Positions 38,612-59,145 of a DNA stretch of 64,000 nt are shown one piece after another. Made by a program: the position numbers and the translations under genes. The notes beneath the pieces were generated by a model. That model was not told where the DNA came from. It ran no database searches and saw only the letters and a program-made list of their open reading frames with translations. The stretch is from a virus: UHGV virus genome UHGV-0286546; one strand, written 5' to 3'. The number at the start of each line of letters is the position of its first letter. Positions within the stretch are counted from its first letter, which is position 1.

Positions 38612-38896
38612 ATGTTAGAGTTAATGCCAACTGTAATTAAACCGGCTAAAGACATACAAGATTACTTAGAAAGAAAGCTTACAGTTGCTCTTACAGTTGA
38701 ATTTGAAGATAAGAGAGTATGTTATAAAACTCTTTCATCCACAAGTAGCTTCAGTTGTCAAATAGCAGGTTATATACAGGACTTCTTTCAAGAAACTTTA
38801 AGGATAGGTATTTTTAAAGCCTACAGTAGAGTTTATATAAATAACGATGATGTAGAATTATTACATACGATTTTAAGACTAGAAGGAAAACTGTAA
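38612..38896 (+). CDS. LRIKGY-family small protein (array A)
   Basis: C-terminal ...LLHTILRLEGKL. Confidence 0.55.
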   Translation: MLELMPTVIKPAKDIQDYLERKLTVALTVEFEDKRVCYKTLSSTSSFSCQIAGYIQDFFQETLRIGIFKAYSRVYINNDDVELLHTILRLEGKL

Positions 38897-38912
38897 TGAA
38901 AGGAGGTTTAGA

Positions 38913-39212
38913 ATGATAGAATGTAATATATTATGGGAATTGCTTGCAAAAGGATGTAACTACCCCTATATTACAATTACTATACCAGAAGAAAATAAAA
39001 CACGCATCTACATTACTAAACCTTATGATAGATATAGACCTATATCTAATAACATAGTAAACCAAGTAGTTGATACTATAGTAAATACATTTAAACAAGA
39101 AGGCATAAACGTAATCAAAACAAATCTTTCCACTGATTTTCATGAATATATAGTGGATGCTGATATAAACTTTCTTATTGGATTAATTAAAGTAAAAGGA
39201 GTATGTTCATGA
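38913..39212 (+). CDS. LRIKGY-family small protein (array A)
   Basis: C-terminal ...LIGLIKVKGVCS. Confidence 0.55.
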   Translation: MIECNILWELLAKGCNYPYITITIPEENKTRIYITKPYDRYRPISNNIVNQVVDTIVNTFKQEGINVIKTNLSTDFHEYIVDADINFLIGLIKVKGVCS

Positions 39213-39499
39213 GGATAACTAGAGCATTTCAAAAGGAATTAAGACGCTTACTCCGAAGACATAACCTAGAAGCTTTCAGACTAAATGTAACAGACATAAC
39301 TGAAAACAATAAACCTAAAGTATATATCTACTTACTTATAGGTGATCTTCCTCACATTAGAATAAGTGATTATCTTTTATTACTAAGTGGAGTCTTTGAT
39401 AAATCAGGAGTTGAATACCAATATCTAAAGAATGTTTGTACCTTTAGTTTTAATCCAGAAGATATAGAAGTATTAACCGGATTTATTAGACTATATTAA
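39203..39499 (+). CDS. LRIKGY-family small protein (array A)
   Basis: C-terminal ...VLTGFIRLY. Confidence 0.5.
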   Translation: MFMRITRAFQKELRRLLRRHNLEAFRLNVTDITENNKPKVYIYLLIGDLPHIRISDYLLLLSGVFDKSGVEYQYLKNVCTFSFNPEDIEVLTGFIRLY

Positions 39500-39514
39500 A
39501 AGGAGATAAATACT

Positions 39515-39880
39515 ATGTCAGACTTTAAATTGGAATTAATTAAACAAGGAGTTGTACTGGATAATATACCCGAAGAAATGTATTGGGCTTATGAAACTGT
39601 ACGTCAATCTGGTATATACAATATGTTAGTATTTCATCCTATTATGGGAAGATATGCAGAATCTAATAAAGATGAAGTATTAAAAGTTATGGATGATATA
39701 TATGTAAAGTACTGTGCTTATACAAATGCTAACATAGAAGAAAGTAAATACGTACATATGACTGTAGACCATGTACGAGCTATCCAAGAATGTTATAACT
39801 TATGTAAAGATTACTTTAAACCTGTACCAGAAGGAGTTATTAATCTTAAACGTAAAGTAAGTATAGATATTGAGTTTTGA
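39515..39880 (+). CDS. hypothetical small protein in array A
   Basis: SD aaaggagataaatact. Confidence 0.5.
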   Translation: MSDFKLELIKQGVVLDNIPEEMYWAYETVRQSGIYNMLVFHPIMGRYAESNKDEVLKVMDDIYVKYCAYTNANIEESKYVHMTVDHVRAIQECYNLCKDYFKPVPEGVINLKRKVSIDIEF

Positions 39881-39897
39881 TTAAAGGAGAATACAAT

Positions 39898-40131
39898 ATG
39901 CTTGTTAAATGTGAAATTATAGACAAAAGAATTAAAGACGGTTTCTTTTCTACTAAATATATTGTTACTGTTAGACCTATAGAAAAACTTAAACCAAAAG
40001 CTATAGAAGTAAAATTCAGTATGGAAAGTTATCATTACTGTCATATAGGAGATATCATTACTTTAACATTTAATGAAGAAGACGATGGTTTATACTATAT
40101 AGATCATGATGCAGGATTCTCAAAAAACTAA
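39898..40131 (+). CDS. hypothetical small protein in array A
   Basis: ATG after aaaggagaatacaat. Confidence 0.45.
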   Translation: MLVKCEIIDKRIKDGFFSTKYIVTVRPIEKLKPKAIEVKFSMESYHYCHIGDIITLTFNEEDDGLYYIDHDAGFSKN

Positions 40132-40141
40132 GGAGGTTAAC

Positions 40142-40414
40142 ATGAATACTAATTACTTAGATGAATTAGTTAAAATGCTATACCGTTACACAAATAACAT
40201 TTTTAGATATAAAGTAAGTATTGAAATAGATCAGGTATATATTTATCCTCGAAGTATTAATTATAGTAAACATACACTAGAAGCTCTATCTAATGTTAAA
40301 GACTTATTTGAAAAAACATTAAATAAAGAAATTAAAAAAGTACAAAACCAACTAATACTTAATCTACAGGATGTTATAGATTTATATACTATACTTAGAA
40401 TACAAGGAGTATAA
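40142..40414 (+). CDS. LRIKGY-family small protein (array A)
   Basis: C-terminal ...DLYTILRIQGV; SD ctaaggaggtt. Confidence 0.5.
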   Translation: MNTNYLDELVKMLYRYTNNIFRYKVSIEIDQVYIYPRSINYSKHTLEALSNVKDLFEKTLNKEIKKVQNQLILNLQDVIDLYTILRIQGV

Positions 40415-40448
40415 ACATTATGACCAACCACAGTAAGGAGTACTACAT

Positions 40449-40757
40449 ATGGATAAAGAAATAATAGAAAACATATTAGACTTTGAAGTTATCACTATGA
40501 ACATATTTCAAAGTCATTTGTTTGTTTCAAATATAGAAAAACATGAAGGTATAGATCATGTATGTCTTGTTATTGACTATACCAAAGATAATGCTAAAGA
40601 AAAAATAGAAGGATTATTACAGAATGCAGGAGTACAGTATACCTATATAAAATCTGATTACTCTAATTTCTGCGGTAAAATACTATTTAAAGTATCTGAC
40701 CTAGAACTTTTAAATACTTATCTACGAATTAAATATGCAGACAGTTTAATATACTAA
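40449..40757 (+). CDS. LRIKGY-family small protein (array A)
   Basis: ...LLNTYLRIKYADSLIY; ACCAACCAC motif upstream. Confidence 0.55.
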   Translation: MDKEIIENILDFEVITMNIFQSHLFVSNIEKHEGIDHVCLVIDYTKDNAKEKIEGLLQNAGVQYTYIKSDYSNFCGKILFKVSDLELLNTYLRIKYADSLIY

Positions 40758-40776
40758 TATAAAGGAGGAATATACT

Positions 40777-41064
40777 ATGGCTATTTTACCACTATCAAAT
40801 TATATTAGAAGGTACTTAACACAAGGATCTCAATTGGCTTTTCATACTACTAAAGGAACTAAAATAATTGCTCCAGGTATGATATTTGGTTTACGTTTAT
40901 CTCATGATCGTAGAAAAATAAGATGTATTATAGAAGATGAAATCAATAAAGTCTTTACACTTACTAGAGAAGATTATCAATACTTATTAGATAATTCAAT
41001 TTCTATTCCTGAAGCAATCAAAGAAGGATACCTAACAGAAGATAAACTAACTATTTATGACTAA
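40777..41064 (+). CDS. hypothetical small protein in array A
   Basis: SD aaaggaggaatatact. Confidence 0.5.
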   Translation: MAILPLSNYIRRYLTQGSQLAFHTTKGTKIIAPGMIFGLRLSHDRRKIRCIIEDEINKVFTLTREDYQYLLDNSISIPEAIKEGYLTEDKLTIYD

Positions 41065-41351
41065 CCCTTTCTTTTCTTCTGTTTTTCGTTTTTCTTTTTA
41101 TATATTTTTTCTTTTAACTTTTATTATTCTTTTCTTTAATATTTATTATTATTAATTTTAAATTTTATTATTTTTTTATTTTAACTTTAAATTTTTATTT
41201 TCATTTAACATTTAATATTTTTTATTATTACTTTTTTTAATACCCTTACTTTATTTAAGAGAAGTGAAAGAAGAAAACAAAGAAGAAAGCGAGAGAAGAT
41301 GCAAACACAGTTTAGAACCAGGTACTACGTAAAACCCAAATTATAAATACC

Positions 41352-41395
41352 AAGTTACGCACAGCTTTTTGCAAGTTACGCACAGTTTTTTAATC
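41352..41395 (+). repeat. direct repeat caagttacgcacag(c)tttt x2
   Basis: Two adjacent near-identical 18-nt units. Confidence 0.5.
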
Positions 41396-41434
41396 TACTA
41401 ATAAAAAATATAAAAAATACTTAAAAAATTGCTT

Positions 41435-41475
41435 TACATTATCCATTTATTATGACATAGTATATTTGTTAGCTT
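41435..41475 (+). promoter_or_regulatory. TTGCTTTACA-type promoter (TTATGACATAGTAT -10 region)
   Basis: Same -35/-10 pattern as 5650, 11110 and 41930. Confidence 0.4.
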
Positions 41476-41704
41476 GAGTGAATCATGTTAATTACATTTA
41501 AGTTTAAATTTGATCTTTATATTCCGAATTAATAAAGAATTGGTAAACATGTAGCCAGTTGTTTTGTTGATTTGTTAGTTGCTCCTCCTTGTTGGTTACC
41601 TCTTATTAGCCAACGCAAAGAATGTTATAATGCTTCTTATATGGAAGTTAACCATCTGCAACTGTGGAATGATTAGATGGAATTATAACGATAAGAGTTT
41701 TGTC

Positions 41705-41795
41705 ATCTTTGGAAGTGTGTATTCGCATAATCTATCCTTTTATCCTTTTTTGGGCGCAAATAGATCTCAGAATACACACTTCTTTTTTATTTATC
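41705..41795 (+). repeat. hairpin element copy 1 (GTGTGTATTCGCATAATCT...AGATCTCAGAATACACAC + T-run)
   Basis: 13-bp stem enclosing conserved TTCGCATAATCT and AGATCTCAGAATA; second copy at 42241-42322 with different but complementary stem. Confidence 0.55.
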
Positions 41796-45839: not shown

Positions 45840-46620
45840 GTATGTATTTATATCTATGTCCAGAGTAGTGTAAAGATCCCGTAGGATGGGAAACTTAGTA
45901 TTAGTTATTTAATTAGAACAGTATATTTATGATAAAGTAGTGATTTGGAAGAATTTTTTTGTAAATTTTTTTATTTTAGTTGTATATGTAGGTATATATG
46001 TGGAGTATTTGGGTTAATGTAAGTATGTTATCGTATATATGAGTAGTGTAGTATATAGTAGATAAAAGGTAACGTGATGAGATTGTATGTAGTTATATGG
46101 TGTATGTGTATATATAGGTTGTAGGAATTTTTAGGAAATGTGTCGGCGTAGGTAGATTGTGATATATAGTGGGTATGTATGATTGTAGATAATTGGTTTT
46201 ACGTTTACTGTATTACATGGTATAGTAATGGTAATAATGAAATGAATGATATGAGAGGATGAGCTACGTATGCTGAAAAGAGAATATAGAGAGGTATTAG
46301 GTACAGTATTAAGGAATGATATAGCGGAAGCACTTGACTTATTTACTGGTATTTGGTCAAGTGGTATATATAGAGTTGGTGTAGATAAAGGTGTTGAAAA
46401 AAGATATAATATAGATATAGTATGTAGTAAAGACCAGTATAAAAGAGTTAGAGAGTATGTAGAAGAGGCATATAATTTTAATGAAGAGAAGTTAGTATTC
46501 GATGAAAGTTATTTTGATAGTGCGCATTATTGTTATTCAGTTAGTGAAGAGAAGTTAATGCAGATTTATAGTTTACTTAGAATTAAAGGATATACGATGA
46601 ATTAATCCTAATGTATGGTA
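45840..46620 (+). repeat. C-depleted (G/T/A) alternating purine-pyrimidine tract spanning divergent promoter region and gene 46270..46605
   Basis: Top strand almost C-free; runs of TG/TA alternation (gtatgtgtatatatagg etc.). Confidence 0.55.
46270..46605 (+). CDS. LRIKGY-family small protein (array B, first member) encoded in C-depleted DNA
   Basis: C-terminal ...LMQIYSLLRIKGYTMN. Confidence 0.55.
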   Translation: MLKREYREVLGTVLRNDIAEALDLFTGIWSSGIYRVGVDKGVEKRYNIDIVCSKDQYKRVREYVEEAYNFNEEKLVFDESYFDSAHYCYSVSEEKLMQIYSLLRIKGYTMN

Positions 46621-46704
46621 TATATTGTTTATTATAGATTCCTTTGATACTTAGTTGTATTGAAGGAATTTTTTTTACTATTTTGTTGTAATGGTAATAT
46701 TTGT

Positions 46705-46733
46705 TTTACATTTGAATAGTATTTTGGTATAAT
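46705..46733 (+). promoter_or_regulatory. sigma70-like promoter GTTTTACA-N17-TATAAT
   Basis: Exact consensus hexamers with 17-nt spacer. Confidence 0.55.
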
Positions 46734-49285: not shown

Positions 49286-49309
49286 GACTCGTCGATAAAT
49301 GATTATATG

Positions 49310-49348
49310 AAGGTCCTTGGAGAAAAATCTTTGGACCTTTTATTTTAT
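49310..49348 (+). terminator. rho-independent terminator
   Basis: aaggtcc-loop-ggacctt + T-rich. Confidence 0.55.
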
Positions 49349-49388
49349 TGGTTTTACTTTATTTATAGTATAGTGTATATTATATATA

Positions 49389-49997: not shown

Positions 49998-50303
49998 ATG
50001 AGCACAGATACATTTAGACTTAAGGATATTGCAGCAGGATTTGTAATGGATATTGGTATACAGTTTGAAACAAAAATTTATGCGTCAATATTTACAGAAG
50101 TACGAGATGCTCGTTATAGGTTAGAGATAATGATGCCGGTAGAATTAGAAAAAGAACTTGACAGGTTTTTAATAGAGAAGTATGAGTTAACATCGACATT
50201 ACGAATACATTGGAATGCCTTTTGGGTTAAAAAAGAGTATCGTATAAAAAAAGATATGTTAGACAACATTAAGGTTTTGATTAGATTGTTAGGATATATG
50301 TAA
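49998..50303 (+). CDS. LRIKGY-family small protein (array B)
   Basis: ...NIKVLIRLLGYM. Confidence 0.55.
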   Translation: MSTDTFRLKDIAAGFVMDIGIQFETKIYASIFTEVRDARYRLEIMMPVELEKELDRFLIEKYELTSTLRIHWNAFWVKKEYRIKKDMLDNIKVLIRLLGYM

Positions 50304-50304
50304 A

Positions 50305-50607
50305 ATGAATGAGATACATTATAACATTTGTAGGATGTTAGAAAAAGAGTTATATAATAAATTTGGAGATACTTATATATTTGCCTATATAGATTATTTT
50401 AATAAAGATAAATCAGTACTTAATATAACTTGTGAAGATAAAAAAGTGAATGAGATAAAAGCATATATAGATGAGATATATATGTTTAAATCTTTTCCTG
50501 AGGGTGTTAAAGTTTGGGATTCATTTAAAGACCGTATTTCATATTTAGTTAATGATGAAGATTTAGAAAAAATGGAAGTTATACTTATGATAAAGGGTTA
50601 CTTATAA
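50305..50607 (+). CDS. LRIKGY-family small protein (array B)
   Basis: ...MEVILMIKGYL. Confidence 0.55.
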   Translation: MNEIHYNICRMLEKELYNKFGDTYIFAYIDYFNKDKSVLNITCEDKKVNEIKAYIDEIYMFKSFPEGVKVWDSFKDRISYLVNDEDLEKMEVILMIKGYL

Positions 50608-51050
50608 TGACTAATGTATCAGATAAGCATAGTAAAATAATATGTATAGCTTGCGATTATGATTGGGGCGAAGGTGTAACGGTAAATCAAGAAATGGTAC
50701 GATTACAACTTTATATGTATATTGTTAATAAAGTCATAAAAAGCAAAGATGTTAGGATAGAAAGTCTTCCCAGTTTTTCTGAGCATGAGGTACACTATGA
50801 AATCAAGTTATATGAAGACGATTTAACACCGGATTACAATACATTATACAGAATTGATGAACGAGCTTTTACAAACGATATACTTGTAAATTGTATTGAA
50901 GAAAAGATGACTTTGTTTAGAAAAATAAAACTTAATCTATGGTATATGTATGTAACTACTCATGGAATGGTTTATGTATTTATACTTATCGCAATTGTTA
51001 TTTTATTGATATTTGGGTTAAGACTAAATTATTTGTGTAATTGTGGATAA
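50607..51050 (+). CDS. LRIKGY-family protein with C-terminal TM helix
   Basis: internal YNTLYRIDERAF motif. Confidence 0.5.
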   Translation: MTNVSDKHSKIICIACDYDWGEGVTVNQEMVRLQLYMYIVNKVIKSKDVRIESLPSFSEHEVHYEIKLYEDDLTPDYNTLYRIDERAFTNDILVNCIEEKMTLFRKIKLNLWYMYVTTHGMVYVFILIAIVILLIFGLRLNYLCNCG

Positions 51051-51092: not shown

Positions 51093-51407
51093 ATGCTGTC
51101 TGTTGATCTAAACGAGTTAAAGAGTGTAATAGAATCTGACATTGGTGCATTTTTCAAAAGTAATAACTTAGAAGCACCTTTACTTGTATTTTTAAATCAT
51201 GCTGATTCTGAAGATGTCTTATATTTTTCAGTGCTAATTGGAATAGCTGCCCGCAAACAACTCGATGAATATATACAAACTACTTACAGAGCATCTAAAA
51301 TATCAGACTTTAAAGGTGAACAAAATGTTCATTATGGTTCCTACGTTTTAACTAAAGATACAATAGAAGATATGATAACTATATTTAGGATAAAAGGTTA
51401 TTTGTAA
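51093..51407 (+). CDS. LRIKGY-family small protein (array B)
   Basis: ...DMITIFRIKGYL. Confidence 0.55.
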   Translation: MLSVDLNELKSVIESDIGAFFKSNNLEAPLLVFLNHADSEDVLYFSVLIGIAARKQLDEYIQTTYRASKISDFKGEQNVHYGSYVLTKDTIEDMITIFRIKGYL

Positions 51408-51539
51408 TACATAGAGAATTATAACTCTTATCGCTTAAAATAGGCTCGGTTATTATTCCAGACCTTTATTTATATCTGTTTTACACTATTTTATTTACAT
51501 AGTACAATAAATATATAAAATGAAAAAGGTAGTATGTAA

Positions 51540-51917
51540 ATGAATGAGAATGTTTTTGCGTATATTAATATTGATGATTATCGTTTAGATTTGTCTAGTA
51601 TTGAATTAGACAATGAAATAATAAGTATACCCGAATCAATAATAACTAGTAGTACATTTATTAATACTCTTCACAATAAGTTAAAGAGTTGTTTTAAGAA
51701 TGTTTATGCAGTGCGTGCGCTTCGAACTTTTCCTATACCACAAGGCCATGAACTGGCAATATATCCTAAGTTTCAATATGTGATAAATGTAAACTTTGAG
51801 TATAAGGATTTAAACGATGAATTGTTTACTTTATATAAGATTGATCGCAAATCTGCTTTAATTTTTTTACTTAATGAGGTAAAAAAGATTATTGAAGAGT
51901 TTGAAAATATTATATAA
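51540..51917 (+). CDS. LRIKGY-family small protein (TLYKIDRK subtype)
   Basis: ELFTLYKIDRKS near C-terminus. Confidence 0.5.
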   Translation: MNENVFAYINIDDYRLDLSSIELDNEIISIPESIITSSTFINTLHNKLKSCFKNVYAVRALRTFPIPQGHELAIYPKFQYVINVNFEYKDLNDELFTLYKIDRKSALIFLLNEVKKIIEEFENII

Positions 51918-51926
51918 AGGTTGGCA

Positions 51927-52274
51927 ATGCTAGAAAAGTTAAAAATTGGTATTCATGTATATCCTGCAGCTGATTTTGAAGTGTATAGTACTAAAATAAC
52001 TGTATATTTAGATTCTTTTTTGTCAAATTCAGAAGAACTAATAAAAGATAGCTTGATTGCTCAACTTGCAAAATATTATATAGGTGATGATTTTTCCGAT
52101 AATATAATTAGTTATATTTGGTTTAAAGGAAGTACATTTGATGTATCTTTTGACATAAAAGTAGTTGAGCATCAATTACTTGAAGAGTACAGAACCTTAT
52201 ATAGAATAAATAAAAAGACAGTCTGTGATTATTTTATTGACAGTATTAAAAAATTGGACAAGTGTACGTTATGA
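51927..52274 (+). CDS. LRIKGY-family small protein (TLYRINKK subtype)
   Basis: EYRTLYRINKKT. Confidence 0.5.
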   Translation: MLEKLKIGIHVYPAADFEVYSTKITVYLDSFLSNSEELIKDSLIAQLAKYYIGDDFSDNIISYIWFKGSTFDVSFDIKVVEHQLLEEYRTLYRINKKTVCDYFIDSIKKLDKCTL

Positions 52275-52621
52275 GTTTAATAATAAATGTAAAACTCTTT
52301 GATCGTGATACTGAAGCTGATTCGATATCTTCAAAACAGATATACGAAAACTCTTTTGTTGCTCCAGAAGAATTAATTTCAGATAGAAGTTTGGATACTA
52401 TTCGAGAGATAGTCAAAATCAAATTACAAGAATATTTCAAAGACTTTTGTTTTTCGTGGGTATATTGGATAAAAGATAAATATTGTGAAGACAATAGATA
52501 CAAGTATGAAGATCAAGTAATCTCAATTAGTCTTTCGATATATGGTGAACTTATTAAAGGTGATTATAATACATTATATAGGATTGACAAAAAAAAGTAT
52601 GTGTATCTATATAATGAATAA
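52262..52621 (+). CDS. LRIKGY-family small protein (TLYRIDKK subtype)
   Basis: DYNTLYRIDKKK. Confidence 0.5.
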   Translation: MYVMSLIINVKLFDRDTEADSISSKQIYENSFVAPEELISDRSLDTIREIVKIKLQEYFKDFCFSWVYWIKDKYCEDNRYKYEDQVISISLSIYGELIKGDYNTLYRIDKKKYVYLYNE

Positions 52622-52659
52622 ATTAAAAGAATTAGAATTAGTAAAAGGATGACAACGTA

Positions 52660-52998
52660 ATGTATACTCATACTACTAATATCTTTTTTAACCTTGTGAC
52701 AGAGCAGAATGAAATTATTAAATATAATGTCGTTTTATCTTTGCATAGTCGAACTCCAAAAATAAAATCTCAAAAGGTATTTGATTTGATTAAAAATAAA
52801 TTAAAGGCGTTTTTTATTAATATTCCTAATATGACAATTTATCATAAAAATGAATATTTAACGATTTCGGCTTTGGAACAAGAATGTGATATTTTAGTTA
52901 TAATTAAAGTCATTGCGATAGATTTAAAAGAACATTATAGGACTTTGTTGAGAATCAGTCCTAGATCTCTAACAGAATGTTTCGTAGCGGCGTTATAA
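52660..52998 (+). CDS. LRIKGY-family small protein
   Basis: HYRTLLRISPRS. Confidence 0.5.
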   Translation: MYTHTTNIFFNLVTEQNEIIKYNVVLSLHSRTPKIKSQKVFDLIKNKLKAFFINIPNMTIYHKNEYLTISALEQECDILVIIKVIAIDLKEHYRTLLRISPRSLTECFVAAL

Positions 52999-53043
52999 CA
53001 GAATGCAGTGAAAAATTTAGTACAATAAAGTGAAAGTAAAACA

Positions 53044-53388
53044 ATGAATCCTGAATACAAACTTTTTATCCAGTTAAATATGTATTGCACAAACACAGTC
53101 GAAGCAGTCATGAAAAATATAACAATGATTATACCTTATATGAATACGCGTACTTTAGCTATCAAAATTGAATCTATTATAAATAAATATTTTATAAGCC
53201 AAAGATTGAGTCAAATAAAATACACATATCATCCTTTTAAAACAGATATTGGAAATGAGATTATCGTTTATGTAAATATGCGTGAAAAAGATTTGTTAAA
53301 TGATTATAAAACTTTGCAGCGAATCAAAGAGGATTATGTATTATGTAACATTAAATCAGAAATAGAAGCGTGTTTAACTCTGTTTTAG
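53044..53388 (+). CDS. LRIKGY-family small protein
   Basis: DYKTLQRIKEDY. Confidence 0.5.
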   Translation: MNPEYKLFIQLNMYCTNTVEAVMKNITMIIPYMNTRTLAIKIESIINKYFISQRLSQIKYTYHPFKTDIGNEIIVYVNMREKDLLNDYKTLQRIKEDYVLCNIKSEIEACLTLF

Positions 53389-53470
53389 TATTTTATTAAC
53401 TATTTCTGTTTTACTTTTCTTATAAAATAGCATATACTTATAATATATAAAGAAGAAAAGGACAAAAACA

Positions 53471-53812
53471 ATGAATATGCTAAAACATTTTACAGATGCA
53501 ACAGCTCATGCAAAGGCGCTGAAGATTATATTGGGATTAGATTCGCCGGTACATATCTTTGGACAATACGATAGACAAGAGAAAAAAGAAATTTCTTATA
53601 TTATTTGTTTTGATTTGCCTTGTAATAAGTCTGAAGCACCTTATTTTAAGAATTATGTGTTGTCTAATTTAGTTCAATTCGGAATGACAGCGAAACGAGT
53701 ATTTTTTACAAAGAATAAATTAGTTTTAACTGTTCCTTTTGAAGCTTTACTTGAATTATCACAACACATAAAAATGATGGTAAATTCTACAAGCAATAGG
53801 GAATTTAAATGA
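53471..53812 (+). CDS. small protein in array B (weak family motif)
   Basis: ORF; SD aaaaggacaaaaacaatg. Confidence 0.5.
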   Translation: MNMLKHFTDATAHAKALKIILGLDSPVHIFGQYDRQEKKEISYIICFDLPCNKSEAPYFKNYVLSNLVQFGMTAKRVFFTKNKLVLTVPFEALLELSQHIKMMVNSTSNREFK

Positions 53813-54129
53813 TAGAAACTTGTGAAACGATTTCTGCCCTTTTACTCAAATACTTTTTAAACAATAATAGAGAATTGTATTTATTTAAGCCGGTATTTGA
53901 AATAAACCCAAAGGAGCTTTTGAATCACGCTAAAAAATTAATAAAAGAGTTGGGGCTAAATAATTATATAGATGTTTGCTTACACGAAGTTATTATTGAA
54001 CTATCTGGAATACAAATGGAAAAACAATCTACTGAAATGGTACATTTTAGTGTGAAAAAAGATAAGGAACATATGGCAGATACTATTTTAGGTTTACTCT
54101 ATATTAAATTAGGAAAACAGTATGATTGA
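53809..54129 (+). CDS. small protein in array B (weak motif ILGLLYIKLG)
   Basis: ATGA overlap. Confidence 0.5.
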   Translation: MIETCETISALLLKYFLNNNRELYLFKPVFEINPKELLNHAKKLIKELGLNNYIDVCLHEVIIELSGIQMEKQSTEMVHFSVKKDKEHMADTILGLLYIKLGKQYD

Positions 54130-54433
54130 CGAACGAGACATATTGGATTTTTGTCGGCTATATAACGAAAAACTTCATGACAATACTGGATTGAAGGTAA
54201 TGTGTTTTTGTGAAGAATCAGATGTTGTTCATGTTGGTTATTTTTTAGGTCATATCTTTAGTGATACTCCTATTGCAAAAGCTTTTTATAAAGAAATAGT
54301 AGAAGCAATGACAGTCAAATTAAAAGAATTGAATATTAATTATAAAATTGCTTTAGATGGTAAATTAATTGGTGTAATAATAAATGAAAATGCGTTTTAT
54401 GATTTTTTGACGTATCTTAAAATTCTTAACTGA
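54122..54433 (+). CDS. small protein in array B (weak motif FLTYLKILN)
   Basis: ORF. Confidence 0.5.
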   Translation: MIDERDILDFCRLYNEKLHDNTGLKVMCFCEESDVVHVGYFLGHIFSDTPIAKAFYKEIVEAMTVKLKELNINYKIALDGKLIGVIINENAFYDFLTYLKILN

Positions 54434-54443
54434 AGAGGTTTAA

Positions 54444-55022
54444 ATGTACAATTCACACCTAATCACATTTTGTGTTTATAGACGTAATTCTGTTGTTTTT
54501 AAATACACAACATCAGATCGTTTTATACTACCGATTGCTGATTTATTTGATAATAAGGGGATTGTACTTTACGATGATATTTATTTTAAATTGAGTGATT
54601 TAAATAAATGTTTTAAATTAAGCAGTGATAAAACAAATAACCAAACTATAAAAAATGAATTACTTTCACTATTTAAATCACGAATTAGACATGCAAAACA
54701 ATTTAGTAAGCAAGTTCAAGTACACCCAATAATCGATATTTGTTATGCGGACGATAAGGATATTATTTCATTTATACGTTATATCAAAAAATGTGATTTG
54801 AGAAAGTTTATAGCATACCTTGCATCTACGTTTAAACTAAATAAATATCAATCCTTTTCATTATACAAAGCAGGTTTAAATAAAAAACAAGTTACTTTGA
54901 GTTTACGTACATTATTTGATGATGATACTACGGAATTATATCGAGTGATTAATGAAAAAGATATTTATAAAATGATATATGACTCGGTAAAAGGATATAC
55001 AAAGGAAGAAAATGAATCGTAA
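54444..55022 (+). CDS. array B protein (TELYRVINEKD motif)
   Basis: ORF. Confidence 0.5.
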   Translation: MYNSHLITFCVYRRNSVVFKYTTSDRFILPIADLFDNKGIVLYDDIYFKLSDLNKCFKLSSDKTNNQTIKNELLSLFKSRIRHAKQFSKQVQVHPIIDICYADDKDIISFIRYIKKCDLRKFIAYLASTFKLNKYQSFSLYKAGLNKKQVTLSLRTLFDDDTTELYRVINEKDIYKMIYDSVKGYTKEENES

Positions 55023-55281
55023 TATACCTGAATATATAAAAGATATATTTGTAAAAACAATACATTATGAAAAGTCACAGTGTATATTTAAATACCGTCA
55101 TAAGCAAAAATTATTTTCTGTTGAATTTCCCGGTACCTTGTATACATTTGAATGGTTTTCTATTAAGCAGATGTTAGCGCTGACTGGGTATAAAGTAATG
55201 TATAGGTATAACACTGTTTATATTTATGACGTTGATGATTTTGAATTATTGCACGGAGTATTGAAATTACATGTTAGTTAG
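55012..55281 (+). CDS. LRIKGY-family small protein
   Basis: ...FELLHGVLKLHVS. Confidence 0.5.
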   Translation: MNRNIPEYIKDIFVKTIHYEKSQCIFKYRHKQKLFSVEFPGTLYTFEWFSIKQMLALTGYKVMYRYNTVYIYDVDDFELLHGVLKLHVS

Positions 55282-55576
55282 TTATAAAGAAAAAGTAGCT
55301 TATTACAATTATATAAAAGATAAATTATGCAAAGACCTCAACTTGGAGATAATAGAGTTTACATGTGTTCGGGGTGAAGTTTTAATATCTTCTCTTGATC
55401 CTAGTACTTATACTAATTATGAGATCAAAGACACAATTAGAAATAATATATATGAATTAAATCTTATTGGTTATATTGTGGTTTCTATGGGTTATGACAA
55501 TAGATATATTAGTGTTAAAGTTTATGATCCTGCTCCAGAATTTATCACACTTCTAAGAATAGAAGGATATTTGTGA
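55271..55576 (+). CDS. LRIKGY-family small protein
   Basis: ...EFITLLRIEGYL. Confidence 0.55.
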   Translation: MLVSYKEKVAYYNYIKDKLCKDLNLEIIEFTCVRGEVLISSLDPSTYTNYEIKDTIRNNIYELNLIGYIVVSMGYDNRYISVKVYDPAPEFITLLRIEGYL

Positions 55577-56065: not shown

Positions 56066-56078
56066 AGGAAAAAGAAAA

Positions 56079-56432
56079 ATGATCTTAAATAAAGGAAAAT
56101 ATACAAACATTAAAGTTGCTTTGGCAAATACTAGTATTATTAATAAAGATCCTCAGATTACTCTTTATTCAGATGATGCAAAGACCATTATTGGTAAAGC
56201 TAAAGTCGTAGATGAAAATCCTTTAACCTTAGATATTGAAATCGAAAAGAATTTAGAATTTTCTACTCCATATTTTAGAATTGTACCTATGAATTATACT
56301 CAACAAAATGGCTATATTATTTCTATACAATCTCTTAAATTAGTAGCTGACATTTCAGAATATACTCCTTTTGTTTTGTCTATTGAAGATAGCTTTAAAG
56401 CAAAGAGAACTACTAGAAAAGCTAGCAAATAA
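56079..56432 (+). CDS. hypothetical protein
   Basis: ATG after aaaggaaaaagaaaa. Confidence 0.45.
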   Translation: MILNKGKYTNIKVALANTSIINKDPQITLYSDDAKTIIGKAKVVDENPLTLDIEIEKNLEFSTPYFRIVPMNYTQQNGYIISIQSLKLVADISEYTPFVLSIEDSFKAKRTTRKASK

Positions 56433-56435
56433 CTG

Positions 56436-56464
56436 TTTTACAAAATAGACAAAATATTGTAAAT
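56436..56464 (+). promoter_or_regulatory. sigma70-like promoter GTTTTACA-N17-TAAATT
   Basis: followed by hairpin cccca/tgggg. Confidence 0.4.
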
Positions 56465-56538
56465 TATAAATATAAAGTTAATTGACCCCAGATATTATTA
56501 TTTAGTATTTGGGGTATTTTATGCAAAGGAATCAAGAA

Positions 56539-57147
56539 ATGAAAAAATTACCCAGCGAATATTTATTTGTTGCAAAAGATGGTAAAACATATTATAAAGC
56601 ATATCAAAAACATAAAAAAGAAATTGAACTTAATGGATATATATTAGCTTCGATTCCGGTTGTATTTGATAAAGAGGCTACTACAGAAGTATTGTTTAAA
56701 ATCATAGAAGATAATCCGCACCTAAAAGATTCTATGTTTTATTTTGATGAGTTTAATAAAGAATTTAATCAAGAAAGCGAAGATACTTATAAAGGTAAAT
56801 TAAACTTTTATTGGTGGGGCATTGAAGTTGAAGATAAAGTTATTGATACAATGATTCCTAAAATGGAAGTAGATATGATTGACGAAACAGGCGAGCGTTA
56901 TAGTATTGAATTTTTATCTGTAAATAAATTGAAAAATCTTAAAATCAACGTTGATCCTACTTTCAATATTTATGACAAAGAAAATAAACCGGTATATACT
57001 CTTGTTAGTTATCCGACGCTGTTCCATATTTTGTATGGATTTTTCTGGGAAGTAAGTTTTTTCGGTAATCCAGAAGATAGAGAAAATAAATCAAATGAAT
57101 TACAAGAAGCGTTAAAAGGTATTAAGAAGGAATTCGACATTGAATAA
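56539..57147 (+). CDS. hypothetical protein
   Basis: ATG after aaggaatcaagaa; listed TTG start 56509 lies inside hairpin. Confidence 0.5.
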   Translation: MKKLPSEYLFVAKDGKTYYKAYQKHKKEIELNGYILASIPVVFDKEATTEVLFKIIEDNPHLKDSMFYFDEFNKEFNQESEDTYKGKLNFYWWGIEVEDKVIDTMIPKMEVDMIDETGERYSIEFLSVNKLKNLKINVDPTFNIYDKENKPVYTLVSYPTLFHILYGFFWEVSFFGNPEDRENKSNELQEALKGIKKEFDIE

Positions 57148-57526
57148 AAATAATGTATTATTAGTTGAAGATAATTTAAGTGTTGCAGCAATTTTTAAAA
57201 TATTAGCAAAAAGAATGGGTATTAACTTAGTCCATCAAACTTCGGCAGAGCGTACTTTAGAATTAGAAGATACTCCACATGCACCTATTTCTTTGGCAAA
57301 TCTTATTATATTGGATTTTGATTTAGTAGGTGAAAATACTCTACCTATTTTACAATATATTAAAGATAATAATATAAATACTCCTGTTATTATGAATAGT
57401 GCAAACCCTAGTATAAAGGATACTATTGATAAAAACGGTTTTACAGATATAATAAAAGAATATAAAGATAAAAATTGTTCATTACAAGAAACACAGGATA
57501 TAATTTTAAAATACCTCGAGGCATAA
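57140..57526 (+). CDS. stand-alone CheY-like receiver (REC) domain protein
   Basis: VLLVEDN acidic pocket, LIILDFDL phospho-acceptor Asp region, PVIMNS, ~128 aa. Confidence 0.55.
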   Translation: MNKNNVLLVEDNLSVAAIFKILAKRMGINLVHQTSAERTLELEDTPHAPISLANLIILDFDLVGENTLPILQYIKDNNINTPVIMNSANPSIKDTIDKNGFTDIIKEYKDKNCSLQETQDIILKYLEA

Positions 57527-57532
57527 GTTTAA

Positions 57533-57718
57533 ATGATTAGTAAAGAAATTGATGAGAGACAAGAAGCACAACAGCTTAATGACTTTTATAATCAAGATGC
57601 AGATTTTATTTTGACAAAAGAAGAAAAGATTGCTAGAATAAAAAAGAACAAAGAGAATTACTATAAAGAACGATTAGCTAAGATGGTATTTGATTCGAAA
57701 GGTAGACAAGGTAAATGA
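57533..57718 (+). CDS. small hypothetical protein
   Basis: ORF. Confidence 0.4.
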   Translation: MISKEIDERQEAQQLNDFYNQDADFILTKEEKIARIKKNKENYYKERLAKMVFDSKGRQGK

Positions 57719-57882
57719 CTACGGAATTAGAAGCTAAGTTAATAGACCAAAACGAAAAGTTAACTAAAACTTTATTACAAATCAAAACTATAATTCAAAA
57801 CGGTAATAGAATTGATTTGGAAATGCTTAAAAAAGAAATAACATTAATAATCGATCAAGAGTTGAAACTAGATGGTAAATAA
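57715..57882 (+). CDS. small hypothetical coiled-coil protein (55 aa)
   Basis: ATGA overlap; below track cutoff. Confidence 0.35.
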   Translation: MTTELEAKLIDQNEKLTKTLLQIKTIIQNGNRIDLEMLKKEITLIIDQELKLDGK

Positions 57883-58177
57883 TTTTGTAATCGAAATCGA
57901 AAAAGAATTAAAAAAACAAATAATATCTGAATTGATATTTAATACAGATAGACTTTTGGATAATGAACCTTTTTTTATGAAAGGTACTGATATCGAATTT
58001 GTAGATAATTCCTGCGTTTTTACTTTCTTTACGTTTTCTACAATAAAAAATATTGTCTTAGAGCTTTTTAAAAATAGACTTAAAAATGTAGAGATCAAAG
58101 ATAGTGCAAATACAATTACTCTTTGCGGTGTTTCTTCTTATGATGATTTAATAGGATTATTAACTATATGCAAATAA
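57872..58177 (+). CDS. small protein (weak LRIK-like C-terminus LIGLLTICK)
   Basis: ORF. Confidence 0.45.
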   Translation: MVNNFVIEIEKELKKQIISELIFNTDRLLDNEPFFMKGTDIEFVDNSCVFTFFTFSTIKNIVLELFKNRLKNVEIKDSANTITLCGVSSYDDLIGLLTICK

Positions 58178-58437
58178 GCAATAAACTTATTATGGAATTA
58201 TCTAAAACCGCTTTGAAATATGCCATACTCTTAGATATTTCATACAATAATAATATCTTAAGTTTTAAAATCAATTCAAAAAGTTATGATTGGGGAATAG
58301 GTAAGTTTTTATCTAGTTGTTTTACAGTTTTATCAAAATATTATAATATTACATATAATAAAGGTTGTTTTACAGTTAACGATCTTACAAATGAAACTCT
58401 ATTTATTAAAAGGCTGAAAAAAATTGACAATCGATGA
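58168..58437 (+). CDS. small protein (LFIKRLKKIDNR C-terminus)
   Basis: ORF. Confidence 0.45.
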   Translation: MQISNKLIMELSKTALKYAILLDISYNNNILSFKINSKSYDWGIGKFLSSCFTVLSKYYNITYNKGCFTVNDLTNETLFIKRLKKIDNR

Positions 58438-58750
58438 AGAAACATTTGAAACTGTGTTTAGAAAGTTTTGGTATCCTTTTTCACTCTATTTGTTGACTCT
58501 CACATTTAAAGAAACAACAAAAGCACTATTTATTATTTGTAAATTCGAAGATGAGCGTATTGAATCTTCTAGTATAAATACAATTCAAAAGGCTTTTCAT
58601 GTTGCAGTTTTAAAAGACCATTTAAATAAATATCCAGAATTAAAAGATCAAATAAGAATAATAAATGAGTATGTAAACAAGAATAGTAAAATTACATTTG
58701 AAATTAAAGATCCTGACTTATTTTATGCATATATGAGATTGAAAGTATAA
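58424..58750 (+). CDS. LRIKGY-family small protein
   Basis: ...DLFYAYMRLKV. Confidence 0.5.
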   Translation: MTIDEETFETVFRKFWYPFSLYLLTLTFKETTKALFIICKFEDERIESSSINTIQKAFHVAVLKDHLNKYPELKDQIRIINEYVNKNSKITFEIKDPDLFYAYMRLKV

Positions 58751-58752
58751 AT

Positions 58753-59145
58753 ATGATTTTTATAGCAGATGTTATCAGAGATAATAAGAAAGTTGAAGTA
58801 ACCGGTCCCTTTGAAAAAGTTATCAAACAATGCATGCCAGATGTAGATCCTAAAGAATATGTACGTGGATTTTTTATATTTTTAAATTACTTTAATATTA
58901 CGGAAAATTCGTCTGGGCATGCTTATTGGTATTGTAATGATTCAGGCAGAAGATATGTTACTTTAGATTTCAGTGACATTTATCATAATGCTTTATATGA
59001 AATTGCTAGTTTTAAATATTTTAAAGATGCCGGAATAAAACCACAGTATACTACAATCTATAATAAAACACGTTATAGTTTAACCATTCCGGTACAAGAA
59101 GATTGGGAAGTTTTTCTTGGATATATAAAGATTACAAACTATTAA
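58753..59145 (+). CDS. LRIKGY-family small protein
   Basis: ...VFLGYIKITNY. Confidence 0.5.
   Translation: MIFIADVIRDNKKVEVTGPFEKVIKQCMPDVDPKEYVRGFFIFLNYFNITENSSGHAYWYCNDSGRRYVTLDFSDIYHNALYEIASFKYFKDAGIKPQYTTIYNKTRYSLTIPVQEDWEVFLGYIKITNY

What the first reader, a model, noticed from the sequence alone, without database searches (positions are those of the whole stretch)
38612..59145. Expanded family (~25 members) of ~100-aa proteins with a conserved C-terminal (Y)xTL(L/Y)RI(K/D)GY motif in two tandem arrays
Array A (38612-41064) and array B (46270-59145, interrupted by a few unrelated genes), plus an orphan at 20215..20574, encode small proteins with highly divergent N-terminal ~80 residues. 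The C-termini share ...LLRIKGYL, ...ILRIQGV, ...LIRLLGYM, ...TLYRIDKK, ...TLYRINKK, ...TLLRISPRS, ...TLQRIKEDY, ...LLRIEGYL, ...YMRLKV and similar. Subtype 1 ends exactly at the motif; subtype 2 (TLYRIDKK) has a short tail. Genes are packed with ATGA overlaps, typical of an early or host-takeover operon. Hyper-diversified bodies with a constant C-terminal tag suggest either a common fold with a conserved last beta-strand or a shared C-terminal signal (degradation, targeting or partner-binding). Neither is an annotated family I recognise.
Basis: seen in the sequence. Interest (0 to 1): 0.85.

Follow-up and report, generated by a model that had tools for sequence, protein, structure and literature searches.

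The report
Expanded small early-protein family in phage
A large uncultured T4-like phage carries about twenty diverged copies of an unannotated ~100-residue protein. The shared C-terminal "tag" is most likely the last core helix of a common small fold, so this looks like a lineage-specific family of early host-interaction proteins rather than a new kind of signal.

The parts
20215..20574 (+). Orphan subtype-1 member (119 aa, ends ...ILTLLRIKNSI)
   Evidence: Leave-one-out HMM z = 4.0, 2/300 shuffles as good. It is the only motif hit outside the arrays. An ortholog, P0078, exists in relatives.
38612..38896 (+). Subtype-1 member (94 aa, ...LHTILRLEGKL), first gene of array A
   Evidence: Leave-one-out z = 11.9. 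hhalign 92% to 40106. Has 16 distinct orthologs. dN/dS 0.37.
38913..39212 (+). Probable subtype-1 member (99 aa, ...LIGLIKVKGVCS)
   Evidence: Not recovered by the leave-one-out HMM. Gives a full-length hhalign match to the core profile (85 columns, probability 51%, top of 61 tested ORFs).
39203..39499 (+). Probable subtype-1 member (98 aa, ...LTGFIRLY)
   Evidence: Leave-one-out z = 2.0. Full-length hhalign match to the core profile, 83 columns, probability 35%.
40106..40414 (+). Subtype-1 member (102 aa, ...LYTILRIQGV)
   Evidence: Leave-one-out z = 4.1. phmmer E = 4e-6 to 38612.
40449..40757 (+). Subtype-1 member (102 aa, ...LNTYLRIKYADSLIY)
   Evidence: Leave-one-out z = 6.2.
46270..46605 (+). 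Subtype-1 member (111 aa, ...IYSLLRIKGYTMN); the modelled protein
   Evidence: AlphaFold2 pLDDT 89.2, pTM 0.83. Elements: H4-21, E33-40, E45-53, H54-67, E75-80, E84-92, H93-105. Leave-one-out z = 10.1. Forms its own promoter-terminator unit.
49998..50303 (+). Subtype-1 member (101 aa, ...IKVLIRLLGYM)
   Evidence: Leave-one-out z = 4.9. Joins the family in the iterative search with no decoys.
50305..50607 (+). Subtype-1 member (100 aa, ...MEVILMIKGYL)
   Evidence: Leave-one-out z = 6.1. hhalign 93% to 46270 over 69 columns.
51093..51407 (+). Subtype-1 member (104 aa, ...MITIFRIKGYL)
   Evidence: Leave-one-out z = 8.8. hhalign 95.5% to the extra member L005_8759 found in a relative.
54122..54433 (+). 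Weakly supported subtype-1 member (103 aa, ...FLTYLKILN)
   Evidence: Leave-one-out z = 2.2. Only the motif region aligns to the core profile.
55012..55281 (+). Subtype-1 member (89 aa, ...LHGVLKLHVS)
   Evidence: Leave-one-out z = 3.6. hhalign 59% to 38612 over 63 columns.
55271..55576 (+). Subtype-1 member (101 aa, ...FITLLRIEGYL)
   Evidence: Leave-one-out z = 7.3.
58424..58750 (+). Weakly supported subtype-1 member (108 aa, ...FYAYMRLKV)
   Evidence: Motif hit. hhalign 20% over 42 columns to the core profile. Not recovered by the leave-one-out HMM.
58753..59145 (+). Subtype-1 member (130 aa, ...FLGYIKITNY), last gene of array B
   Evidence: Leave-one-out z = 5.1. Orthologs P0015 and P0027 hit the family profile.
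53471..54129 (+). Two listed genes without statistical support (53471-53812 and 53809-54129)
   Evidence: Leave-one-out z = -0.9 and 0.6. No profile-profile signal. Real genes under purifying selection (dN/dS 0.06-0.36).
57872..58437 (+). Two listed genes without statistical support (57872-58177 and 58168-58437)
   Evidence: Leave-one-out z = -0.4 and -1.0. 57872 has only a degenerate ending (...LIGLLTICK).
50607..51050 (+). Subtype-2 member with the internal motif (DYNTLYRIDERAF) and a hydrophobic, transmembrane-like C-terminal extension (147 aa)
   Evidence: hhalign 73% to 51921. phmmer E = 1e-4 to 51921 and 52262. The hydrophobic tail is visible in the sequence.
51540..53388 (+). Run of five subtype-2 genes (51540-51917, 51921-52274 with probable true start at 51927, 52262-52621, 52660-52998, 53044-53388) forming one promoter-defined unit
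   Evidence: Pairwise hhalign up to 95%. Part of a 28-member phmmer component that includes relatives. AlphaFold2 model pLDDT 68: E3-13, E20-28, H35-55, E73-79, H86-94 (the motif), H96-108. Promoter at 51478.
54444..55022 (+). 192-aa protein with a subtype-2-like motif (TELYRVINEKD) near its C-terminus; membership uncertain
   Evidence: Motif only. No significant profile link.
38240..38270 (+). Sigma-70/T4-early-like promoter ahead of array A (GCTTTACA-N17-TATGAT)
46196..46226 (+). Promoter ahead of 46270 (GTTTTAC...TGGTATAGT)
46636..46733 (+). Composite terminator hairpin (46636-46671), T-run and promoter (46703-46733), resembling a PeSL element
   Evidence: Hairpin -16.2 kcal/mol, z = -4.9. 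Terminator and promoter scans. Motif position.
49309..49381 (+). Composite hairpin plus promoter ahead of the 49389-51407 unit
   Evidence: Hairpin -14.6 kcal/mol, z = -2.9. Promoter GTTTTAC at 49351.
51478..51508 (+). Promoter ahead of the subtype-2 unit
53408..53438 (+). Promoter ahead of the 53471-56432 unit
   Evidence: (repeat families D4 and D11).
56435..56465 (+). Promoter ahead of the 56509-59145 unit

Best explanation
The window comes from an uncultured, AT-rich T4-like phage with a gp23-type capsid protein and relatives of about 245 kb. On both sides of the capsid gene, on the opposite strand, lie variable early regions of the kind called hyperplastic regions in T4-type phages.

These regions are filled with tandem paralogs of a lineage-restricted small protein.
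- Subtype 1 is a compact alpha/beta domain of about 100 residues with the order helix, strand, strand, helix, strand, strand, helix.
- The conserved ending [DE]-[DE]-phi-x-x-phi-x-(T)-phi-phi-[RK]-phi-x-G-(Y) is the last amphipathic helix of that domain. It has an acidic N-cap, a Gly C-cap and an aromatic plug.
- It is conserved because it closes the hydrophobic core. The rest of the surface is free to diverge (pI ranges from 4.7 to 10).
- Subtype 2 carries the same helix motif after its last strand but adds a further C-terminal helix. It is probably a diverged branch.

The genes are transcribed from host sigma-70-type promoters as short multi-gene units. They are duplicated, lost and swapped between strains at promoter/terminator junctions, and each copy is kept under purifying selection.

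The inferred function is a library of early-expressed binding modules. Each would use its variable surface to bind a different host target, for takeover or to neutralise defence or housekeeping proteins.

Shown here: the genes, the motif statistics, the predicted fold, the lineage restriction, the promoter motif, gain and loss between strains, and purifying selection.
Inferred: early timing, and the host-binding or anti-defence role.
For: - Motif enrichment and de novo recovery, with variable codons at conserved positions.
- Leave-one-out and profile-profile support for about 15 subtype-1 and 6 subtype-2 genes.
- AlphaFold2 model with pLDDT 89. The motif is helix 93-105, at pLDDT about 90.
- The extended alignment shows a second conserved block at the end of helix 2 (phi-x-x-Y-phi-x-x-x-[FY]-[GN]-phi). 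Similarity therefore runs along the whole protein, not only the tail.
- An iterative profile search with shuffled decoys grows the family to 43 proteins with 0 decoys.
- Relatives with 56-85% capsid identity carry the same kind of arrays on the strand opposite the capsid gene. Motif-ending ORFs number 49 of 350 there, against 6 of 88 on the other strand.
- There is no homolog outside the lineage among 1.84 billion representative proteins, apart from one spurious repeat-protein hit. Pfam, PHROGs, NCBIfam, PADLOC, PDB sequences and deposited phages also gave nothing.
- 24 of 34 plus-strand G[TC]TTTAC sites fall in the 20% of the window that is non-coding, one ahead of each sub-array.
- Hairpin-plus-promoter composites are present, as described for T4-type hyperplastic regions (PMC4122927).
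- Members are gained and lost between close relatives at those gaps.
- dN/dS is mostly 0.05-0.56, similar to neighbouring genes.
- Net charge is heterogeneous.
Against: - No functional evidence of any kind exists. The host-binding role rests on analogy with small early phage proteins.
- Timing is inferred from promoter sequence only.
- Subtype 1 and subtype 2 profiles align only over the motif (E = 0.1).
- The one sequence bridge between the subtypes is a pair of 14-15-bit alignments through L014_4982.
- Average dN/dS below 1 shows no arms-race signature, although site-specific tests were not run.
- The Arg/Lys and Gly-Tyr at the very C-terminus are conserved more tightly than packing alone obviously requires.
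Confidence: 0.5

Rival explanations
1. The conserved C-terminal helix is a shared docking or targeting module. All paralogs would bind one common hub through it and deliver different bodies to that hub. Candidate hubs are a host machine such as RNA polymerase, the ribosome or a protease adaptor; a phage chaperone; or the prohead, so that the proteins are packaged and injected. This would be analogous to the constant capsid-targeting sequence on the variable T4 internal proteins.
For: - The motif sits within 0-6 residues of the C-terminus in nearly all subtype-1 members.
- The polar Arg/Lys and the terminal Gly-Tyr are the best-conserved positions across a family that is otherwise 10-25% identical.
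- Within ortholog groups the motif is slightly more conserved than the rest of the protein (0.89 against 0.84, p = 0.014).
- The arrays flank the capsid gene.
Against: - The helix is modelled at high confidence as an integral, wide-faced amphipathic core helix.
- In subtype 2 the motif is internal and followed by another helix, or by a membrane anchor in 50607.
- The promoters resemble early sigma-70 promoters, and the genes are on the strand opposite the late capsid gene.
- There is no conserved N-terminal or cleavage motif.
- Gly as a helix C-cap and acidic N-caps are ordinary structural features (general structural knowledge).
Confidence: 0.15
2. This is not one family. Subtype 1, subtype 2 and the peripheral genes are unrelated small ORFan proteins. 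They merely share a common type of C-terminal amphipathic helix, helped by AT-rich codon usage and, in some genes, by a Shine-Dalgarno sequence for the next gene embedded in the K-G-Y codons (AAA GGA TAT).
For: - Pairwise similarity is very weak.
- The subtype 1 and subtype 2 profiles match only over 17 motif columns (E = 0.1).
- Four listed genes have no support.
- For 39203, 50305, 50607 and 55577 the upstream gene's terminal codons do contain the AGGA-type ribosome-binding site.
Against: - Shuffles that keep composition give 0.8 hits against 13 observed.
- Full-length profile links exist inside each subtype.
- There is a second conserved block in helix 2.
- The Gly is also kept where no gene follows within 30-180 nt (38612, 40106, 46270, 51093).
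- The codons vary.
- Both models place the motif in a helix straight after the last strand.
- An intermediate, L014_4982, aligns over about 100 residues to both types.
Confidence: 0.15
3. The proteins are diverged structural paralogs of the neck or tail-terminator class, or assembly factors derived from them, expressed for virion building.
Against: - The same list contains PilO, PilN and GspL domains, ribosomal protein S6 and ACT-like domains, so this is a generic two-layer alpha/beta sandwich.
- There is no Pfam or PHROG tail-family hit.
- There are more than 20 copies with very different charge.
- The genes lie on the opposite strand to the capsid gene, behind early-type promoters.
- Copies are freely gained and lost between strains, which is atypical for structural genes.
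Confidence: 0.05
4. They are small nucleic-acid-binding regulators or DNA mimics that reprogram host or phage gene expression.
For: Small alpha/beta domains with an exposed sheet often bind RNA or DNA. Some members are very basic (20215 pI 10.0; 58168 pI 9.5) and others acidic (57872 pI 4.7).
Against: - There is no uniform charge signature across the family.
- There is no match to any DNA- or RNA-binding family.
- Apart from the single Arg/Lys in the motif, no polar residue is conserved.
Confidence: 0.05

Closest known systems
Hyperplastic-region ORFan early genes of T4-type phages, bounded by promoter-early/stem-loop (PeSL) cassettes (Arbiol et al. 2010, PMC2839356; Comeau et al. 2014, PMC4122927)
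   Same: - T4-type phage with a gp23 capsid protein.
- Blocks of small unknown genes lie between core genes.
- Each block is driven by strong sigma-70-type promoters, several directly preceded by a terminator hairpin.
- Insertions, deletions and replacements between close relatives fall at those junctions.
   Different: The blocks here are dominated by one or two expanded paralog families of 20 or more members, rather than by unrelated ORFans. The promoter -35 element is G(T/C)TTTAC(A). The phage is far from any cultured T4-like phage: the best capsid identity is 34-39%.
T4 internal proteins IPI/IPII/IPIII with a constant capsid-targeting sequence (from my own knowledge of the T4 literature)
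   Same: Small, fast-diverging proteins that share one short constant terminal segment, encoded in a variable locus of T4-type phages. At least IPI counters a host defence.
   Different: The T4 targeting sequence is N-terminal, about 10 residues long, unstructured, and removed by the prohead protease. Here the constant segment is C-terminal, helical and part of the predicted fold, and no conserved N-terminus exists.
Tail terminator and tail completion proteins (lambda gpU, DUF3168 class)
   Different: There is no sequence relationship and Z stays below 8. This family is smaller (about 100 aa against 120-200 aa), multi-copy, encoded behind early-type promoters, and lies outside any tail module.
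Permuted ferredoxin-like (alpha-beta-beta)x2 domains such as PilO, PilN and GspL periplasmic domains
   Different: Those are periplasmic parts of membrane proteins of pilus or secretion machines. Here the proteins are soluble (except 50607), carry an added third helix that holds the family motif, and show no sequence similarity.
Clusters of small anti-defence genes in phage accessory regions, such as anti-CRISPR and anti-restriction loci (from my own knowledge)
   Same: Small, early, rapidly turning-over, lineage-restricted proteins with no enzyme motifs, clustered and variable between strains.
   Different: No member matches any known anti-defence or defence family. Such loci usually hold unrelated proteins rather than one expanded fold. 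No activity was tested.

Membership tests
T4-type hyperplastic-region early gene cassette (PeSL type) | The host genome is a T4-type phage | tested here: met
   The capsid protein at 44188-45771 (-) corresponds to the Pfam Gp23 (PF07068) gene called in relatives. It is 34-39% identical to myovirus major head proteins.
T4-type hyperplastic-region early gene cassette (PeSL type) | A strong sigma-70-type early promoter lies upstream of the gene block | tested here: met
   G[TC]TTTAC(A)-N17-TAnnnT lies ahead of every sub-array. 24 of 34 plus-strand sites fall in the 20% non-coding sequence, against 6 of 24 on the minus strand. This is sequence evidence only; activity and timing were not measured.
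T4-type hyperplastic-region early gene cassette (PeSL type) | A terminator stem-loop lies immediately upstream of the promoter | tested here: met
   Found at 46636-46733, 49309-49381 and 59857-59918, with hairpin z-scores of -4.9, -2.9 and -5.5. Absent or weak at 51478 and 53408.
T4-type hyperplastic-region early gene cassette (PeSL type) | Indels between close relatives map to these junctions | tested here: met
   - L006 has a 4-kb insertion, including a reverse transcriptase, at the gap equivalent to 51408-51539.
- L005 and L006 have two extra genes at the gap equivalent to 53389-53470.
- Members are added or missing in L002, L005 and L006.
Tail terminator protein (lambda gpU / DUF3168 class) | Significant structural similarity to solved tail terminators | tested here: inconclusive
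Tail terminator protein (lambda gpU / DUF3168 class) | Sequence membership in a tail terminator or tail completion family | tested here: not met
   No Pfam, PHROG or NCBIfam hit for 10 members. The PDB sequence-profile search returned nothing relevant.
Tail terminator protein (lambda gpU / DUF3168 class) | A single gene inside the late neck/tail module | tested here: not met
   There are more than 20 copies in two arrays, on the strand opposite the capsid gene, behind early-type promoters.
T4 internal proteins with a capsid-targeting sequence | A conserved N-terminal targeting peptide of about 10 residues, removed by the prohead protease | tested here: not met
   The N-termini are not conserved beyond Met1. 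The only conserved segments are helix 2 and the C-terminal helix.
T4 internal proteins with a capsid-targeting sequence | Presence inside the virion and injection with the DNA | not testable with these tools
   This needs virion proteomics.
Diversity-generating retroelement target proteins | A variable region paired with a template repeat, adenine-specific mismatches and an adjacent reverse transcriptase | tested here: not met
   There are no long repeats involving family genes in 37000-60000. A true element of this kind exists in relative L006, but its target is an unrelated 319-aa protein. Divergence among paralogs runs along the whole protein.
Any curated protein family (Pfam, PHROGs, NCBIfam, PADLOC) | A profile match above the curated or significant threshold | tested here: not met
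   All hits have E above 0.001 and lie far below the curated cut-offs.

The most novel reading that the evidence does not exclude
The constant C-terminal helix, with its invariant basic residue and Gly-aromatic end, is a common handle. Through it a library of 20 or more different small domains would plug into one hub. That hub could be a host machine or the phage prohead, the latter for co-injection with the DNA. The phage would then carry an exchangeable, strain-variable effector cassette system, analogous in logic to the T4 internal proteins but built on a C-terminal structured module.
Probability: 0.13. Interest if true: 0.75.

Novelty: new member of a known kind. Interest (0 to 1): 0.45.

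Why it matters
- Multigene families of more than 20 copies are unusual in tailed phages. Here one small fold occupies about 8 kb of a 64-kb window and recurs, much diverged, throughout a clade of uncultured ~230-245-kb T4-like phages.
- The family is invisible to all current annotation resources, so it is a clean example of lineage-specific gene birth and expansion in phage accessory regions.
- It is a defined set of candidates for host-takeover or anti-defence screens.
- The analysis also shows that a striking "C-terminal tag" can simply be the most constrained core element of a fast-evolving small domain.
- Without a cultured host, the practical impact is limited for now.

Tried and rejected
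- A full-length HMM from 8 obvious members found no further members. I switched to leave-one-out and profile-profile tests.
- My first Gibbs sampler did not converge. I replaced it with seeded EM.
- Composition or codon artefact: rejected by shuffles and by codon variety.
- An embedded ribosome-binding site as the cause of the K-G-Y ending: it explains only genes with a tightly coupled downstream gene. The Gly persists before 34-177-nt gaps.
- DNA-level repeats or gene conversion: no long repeats link family genes.
- Known families: Pfam, PHROGs, NCBIfam, PADLOC, PDB sequences and tblastn against deposited phages all gave nothing.
- Three word-indexed searches and one exhaustive profile search returned only the same phage lineage, plus one spurious repeat protein, P0082.
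- Domain fusions that might hint at function (220-aa, 211-aa, 192-aa and 147-aa members): no known domains.
- The search for related loci with the family alignment failed for lack of a conserved stretch. I used the capsid protein instead.
- Linking subtype 1 and subtype 2: the profile comparison was not significant. The network bridge rests on one weak edge, so I left it as suggestive.
- Literature searches gave context on T4 early promoters and PeSL elements but nothing on this family.

Full report
**Context.** The window is AT-rich (26-38% GC). Its genes run almost entirely on the plus strand.
- The 527-aa ORF at 44188-45771 (-) is the major capsid protein. Its counterparts in related contigs carry Pfam Gp23 (PF07068). 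The best matches among deposited phages are only 34-39% identical.
- Megablast of 13 kb of array B against 50,697 phage records found nothing.
- Related metagenomic contigs cluster at 235-245 kb, with one of 480 kb. One sits in an NCBI assembly labelled Succinivibrionaceae, which is weak host evidence.
- So this is an uncultured T4-like phage with a large genome.

**Checking the observation.** I tested the motif in three ways.
- Fixed pattern. The pattern phi-x-x-phi-phi-[RKM]-[ILVM] occurs within the last 12 residues of 13 of 36 array ORFs. Five hundred composition-preserving shuffles give 0.82 +/- 0.88 (maximum 5). Outside the arrays it occurs in 1 of 67 ORFs, and that one is the orphan at 20215. 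For the last 25 residues the Fisher test gives p = 8e-8. The pattern was chosen after seeing the data.
- Unsupervised search. A seeded EM search on the last 30 residues of all 94 plus-strand ORFs of 70-260 aa found the same motif. Its log-likelihood ratio was 202.6, against 161-183 in ten shuffled sets. Its highest-scoring sites all lie in the arrays or at 20215.
- Codons. Arg is AGA, AGG, CGA or CGT, and Leu and Ile codons also vary. The constraint is therefore on the protein.

**How many members?** Pairwise similarity is weak: the best phmmer E-values are 1e-4 to 4e-6.
- Leave-one-out profile scoring against 300 shuffles of each protein supports 38612, 40106, 40449, 46270, 49998, 50305, 51093, 55012, 55271, 58753 and 20215 (z = 3.6-11.9). 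Support for 39203 and 54122 is marginal.
- I built profiles from ortholog groups, using relatives. These link 46270, 50305, 51093 and two extra members found only in relatives at 91-95% hhalign probability over 69-92 columns.
- Against the pooled core profile, 38913 (85 columns) and 39203 (83 columns) rank first among 61 tested ORFs, and 58424 also scores.
- 53471, 53809, 57872 and 58168 never rise above background.
- Subtype 2 (51921, 52262, 50607, 52660, 51540, 53044) forms its own cluster, with hhalign up to 95% and a 28-member phmmer component that includes relatives. 54444 has only the motif.
- "About 25" is therefore an upper bound. About 15 plus 6-7 are supportable.

**Structure.** AlphaFold2 modelled 46270-46605, using orthologs and paralogs as the alignment. 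The result was pLDDT 89.2 and pTM 0.83, with elements H4-21, E33-40, E45-53, H54-67, E75-80, E84-92 and H93-105.
- Residues 93-105 are EEKLMQIYSLLRI, so the motif is the last helix. The acidic residues before it are its N-cap. K-G-Y follows as the C-cap.
- That segment is modelled at pLDDT about 90. Only the last residues drop to about 60.
- The hydrophobic positions recur every 3-4 residues on two stripes, as expected for a helix buried against a sheet.
- An extended 29-sequence alignment shows a second conserved block at the end of helix 2 (phi-x-x-Y-phi-x-x-x-[FY]-[GN]-phi, for example VREYVEEAYNF and IKDWFKNTFGL). The family resemblance is therefore not confined to the tail.
- The subtype-2 model is weaker (pLDDT 68): strand, strand, long helix, strand, then the motif helix (86-94), then an extra helix (96-108). 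In both subtypes the motif is a helix that starts right after the last strand.

**Fold comparison.**
- The viral predicted-structure library gave one unnamed 95-aa protein at E = 8e-5 and nothing informative.
- The AlphaFold-database library was unavailable.

**Are the two subtypes related?**
- Profile-profile comparison aligns only 17 motif columns (E = 0.1).
- An iterative profile search seeded on subtype 1, monitored with shuffled decoys (none passed in any round), grew to 43 proteins. It absorbed proteins from distant relatives that sit in the subtype-2 phmmer component.
- That link depends on one protein, L014_4982. It aligns over about 100 residues to both a subtype-2 ortholog and a subtype-1-type protein, at only 14-15 bits each.
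- I treat common ancestry as suggestive.

**Distribution.**
- A profile of 17 members was scored against all 1.84 billion representative proteins. It returned 14 hits: 13 are orthologs of window members and one is a spurious 1094-aa repeat protein.
- Three word-indexed searches of 5.8 billion proteins gave only unnamed proteins of the same lengths from the same kind of contigs.
- Pfam, PHROGs, NCBIfam, PADLOC, PDB sequences and tblastn against deposited phages gave nothing significant.
- Using the capsid protein to fetch IMG/VR relatives (56-85% capsid identity), I found many ORFs of 90-150 aa with the same ending. Examples are ...IVTVLRMKGLINA...IYGLLRIKGYL......LALLYKIAI and ...LFALYKIEGWI. 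They lie on the strand opposite the capsid gene: 49 of 350 ORFs there, against 6 of 88 on the other strand. One 21-kb locus (L010) has at least a dozen.
- The family is thus a hallmark of a whole clade and is much more diverse than the window shows.

**Genomic organisation and expression signals.**
- Every intergenic gap of 70 nt or more in the arrays contains G[TC]TTTAC(A), then about 17 nt, then TAnnnT, often with TG before it.
- Across the window, 24 of 34 plus-strand G[TC]TTTAC sites lie in the 20% of sequence that is non-coding, against 6 of 24 on the minus strand. The spaced pattern occurs 40 times against 20 +/- 5 expected.
- T4 early promoters are described as excellent sigma-70 promoters with -35, TGn and -10 elements (PMC2988021). 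The -35 hexamer here resembles what I recall as the T4 early GTTTAC.
- At 46636-46733, 49309-49381 and 59857-59918 a stable hairpin and T-run sit directly before the promoter. This matches the composite terminator/promoter cassettes reported to mediate shuffling in T4-type hyperplastic regions (PMC4122927).
- The promoters divide the arrays into units: 38612-41064; 46270 alone; 49389-51407; 51540-53388, which holds exactly the run of five subtype-2 genes; 53471-56432; and 56509-59145.
- Gene junctions are tight (gaps of -29 to +45 nt), but only two are literal ATGA overlaps.

**Evolution.**
- Close relatives (L001-L006) differ by whole genes. L002 lacks the ortholog of 40449 (102 aa). L005 and L006 have two extra subtype-1 genes after the 50305 ortholog, extra subtype-2 genes, and a 220-aa protein whose C-terminal half aligns to 46270. 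The insertions fall at the promoter gaps.
- Orthologs are 66-98% identical where core proteins are 94-100% identical.
- dN/dS is mostly 0.05-0.56 (medians 0.20-0.37 against 0.19-0.21 for neighbours). The two values above 1 come from pairs with almost no synonymous change. These are real, constrained genes that evolve fast and turn over.
- Within ortholog groups the motif is slightly more conserved than the rest of the protein (0.89 against 0.84).
- Net charge ranges from -6 to +14 and pI from 4.7 to 10. One subtype-2 member has a hydrophobic C-terminal anchor (50607).

**Interpretation.**
- Shown: there is an unannotated, lineage-restricted, tandemly expanded family of small alpha/beta proteins. 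Its conserved C-terminus is the closing helix of the predicted fold. The family lies in early-type, recombination-prone regions flanking the capsid gene.
- Inferred: the proteins are early, and they act as a diversified set of binding modules against host targets (takeover or counter-defence). This rests on analogy with other small early phage proteins, on the lack of any conserved catalytic-type residues, and on the variable surfaces and strain-level turnover.
- The main rival is a shared docking or targeting handle. The strict C-terminal position and the conserved Arg/Lys and Gly-Tyr keep it alive. It is weakened by the confident packing of the helix and by subtype 2, where the motif is internal.
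- A structural (tail-terminator-like) role and a nucleic-acid-binding role are unlikely.

**Verdict.** The "signal" half is not supported but remains open. It is a new protein family of a known general kind (expanded accessory early genes of a T4-type phage), interesting mainly for its size and complete lack of annotation.

Noticed in passing
L006:6893-9893 (relative contig ERR13991539_467; inserted at the position equivalent to window 51408-51539): A complete diversity-generating retroelement in a close relative: a 319-aa target gene, a 135-aa gene, and a reverse transcriptase (RVT_1, E = 1.5e-15). A 105-nt repeat pair lies at 7737-7841 and 8399-8503, and 10 of its 11 mismatches fall at adenines of the second copy. 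The target is not a member of the family, and the window lacks the element.
   Followed up: partly
window 41065-42322: A 1.26-kb stretch with no credible ORF between array A and the homing-endonuclease genes. It is 92-98% identical in four relatives. It contains four T-rich repeats spaced 22 nt apart (41103-41236), a duplicated CAAGTTACGCACAG, and two strong promoter motifs (41431, 41930). There is no Rfam match. It may be a non-coding RNA locus or a replication origin.
   Followed up: partly
window 2563-11586: Twelve tRNA genes (Ser, Ile x2, Gln, Tyr, Phe, Lys, Met, Arg, Cys, His, Trp), interspersed with small ORFs and the same promoter motif.
   Followed up: no
window 6914-7390, 10530-11102 (+) and 47718-48302 (-): A second, unrelated paralog family. 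The first two proteins match at phmmer E = 1e-31. The minus-strand gene inside array B matches 10530 at E = 5e-6. No Pfam or PHROG hit for 47718-48302.
   Followed up: no
window 27894-28523 and 59216-59836: Two paralogous proteins of about 206 aa (E = 7e-11). The second has I-TevI DNA-binding and NUMOD1 motifs but no recognisable nuclease domain. They may be degenerate homing-endonuclease DNA-binding proteins.
   Followed up: no
window 42323-43985 (-) and the equivalent region in L001-L004: Two minus-strand genes next to the capsid gene. In relatives they are replaced by NUMOD3 homing-endonuclease-like genes of different lengths (140-443 aa). This looks like a mobile-endonuclease hot spot beside the capsid gene.
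   Followed up: no
window 48428-49285: A very basic 285-aa protein (pI 9.8) inside array B with three to four tandem repeats of about 56 aa (…GE(I/T)VNGWLLEDTG…YKG…TGK…). No Pfam or PHROG match.
   Followed up: no
window 57140-57526: A 128-aa protein inside array B resembling a response-regulator receiver domain (PF00072, 28.8 bits, just under the 30.2 cut-off). It is conserved in relatives with dN/dS 0.08-0.09.
   Followed up: no
window 59955-61184: A phage-encoded M16 (insulinase/pitrilysin-type) peptidase with both domains (E = 7e-42 and 1.5e-32), directly downstream of array B.
   Followed up: no
related contigs: Most long relatives are 235-245 kb, but one contig carrying identical proteins is 480,241 bp, about twice the size. 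It could be an assembly concatemer or a different genome structure.
   Followed up: no
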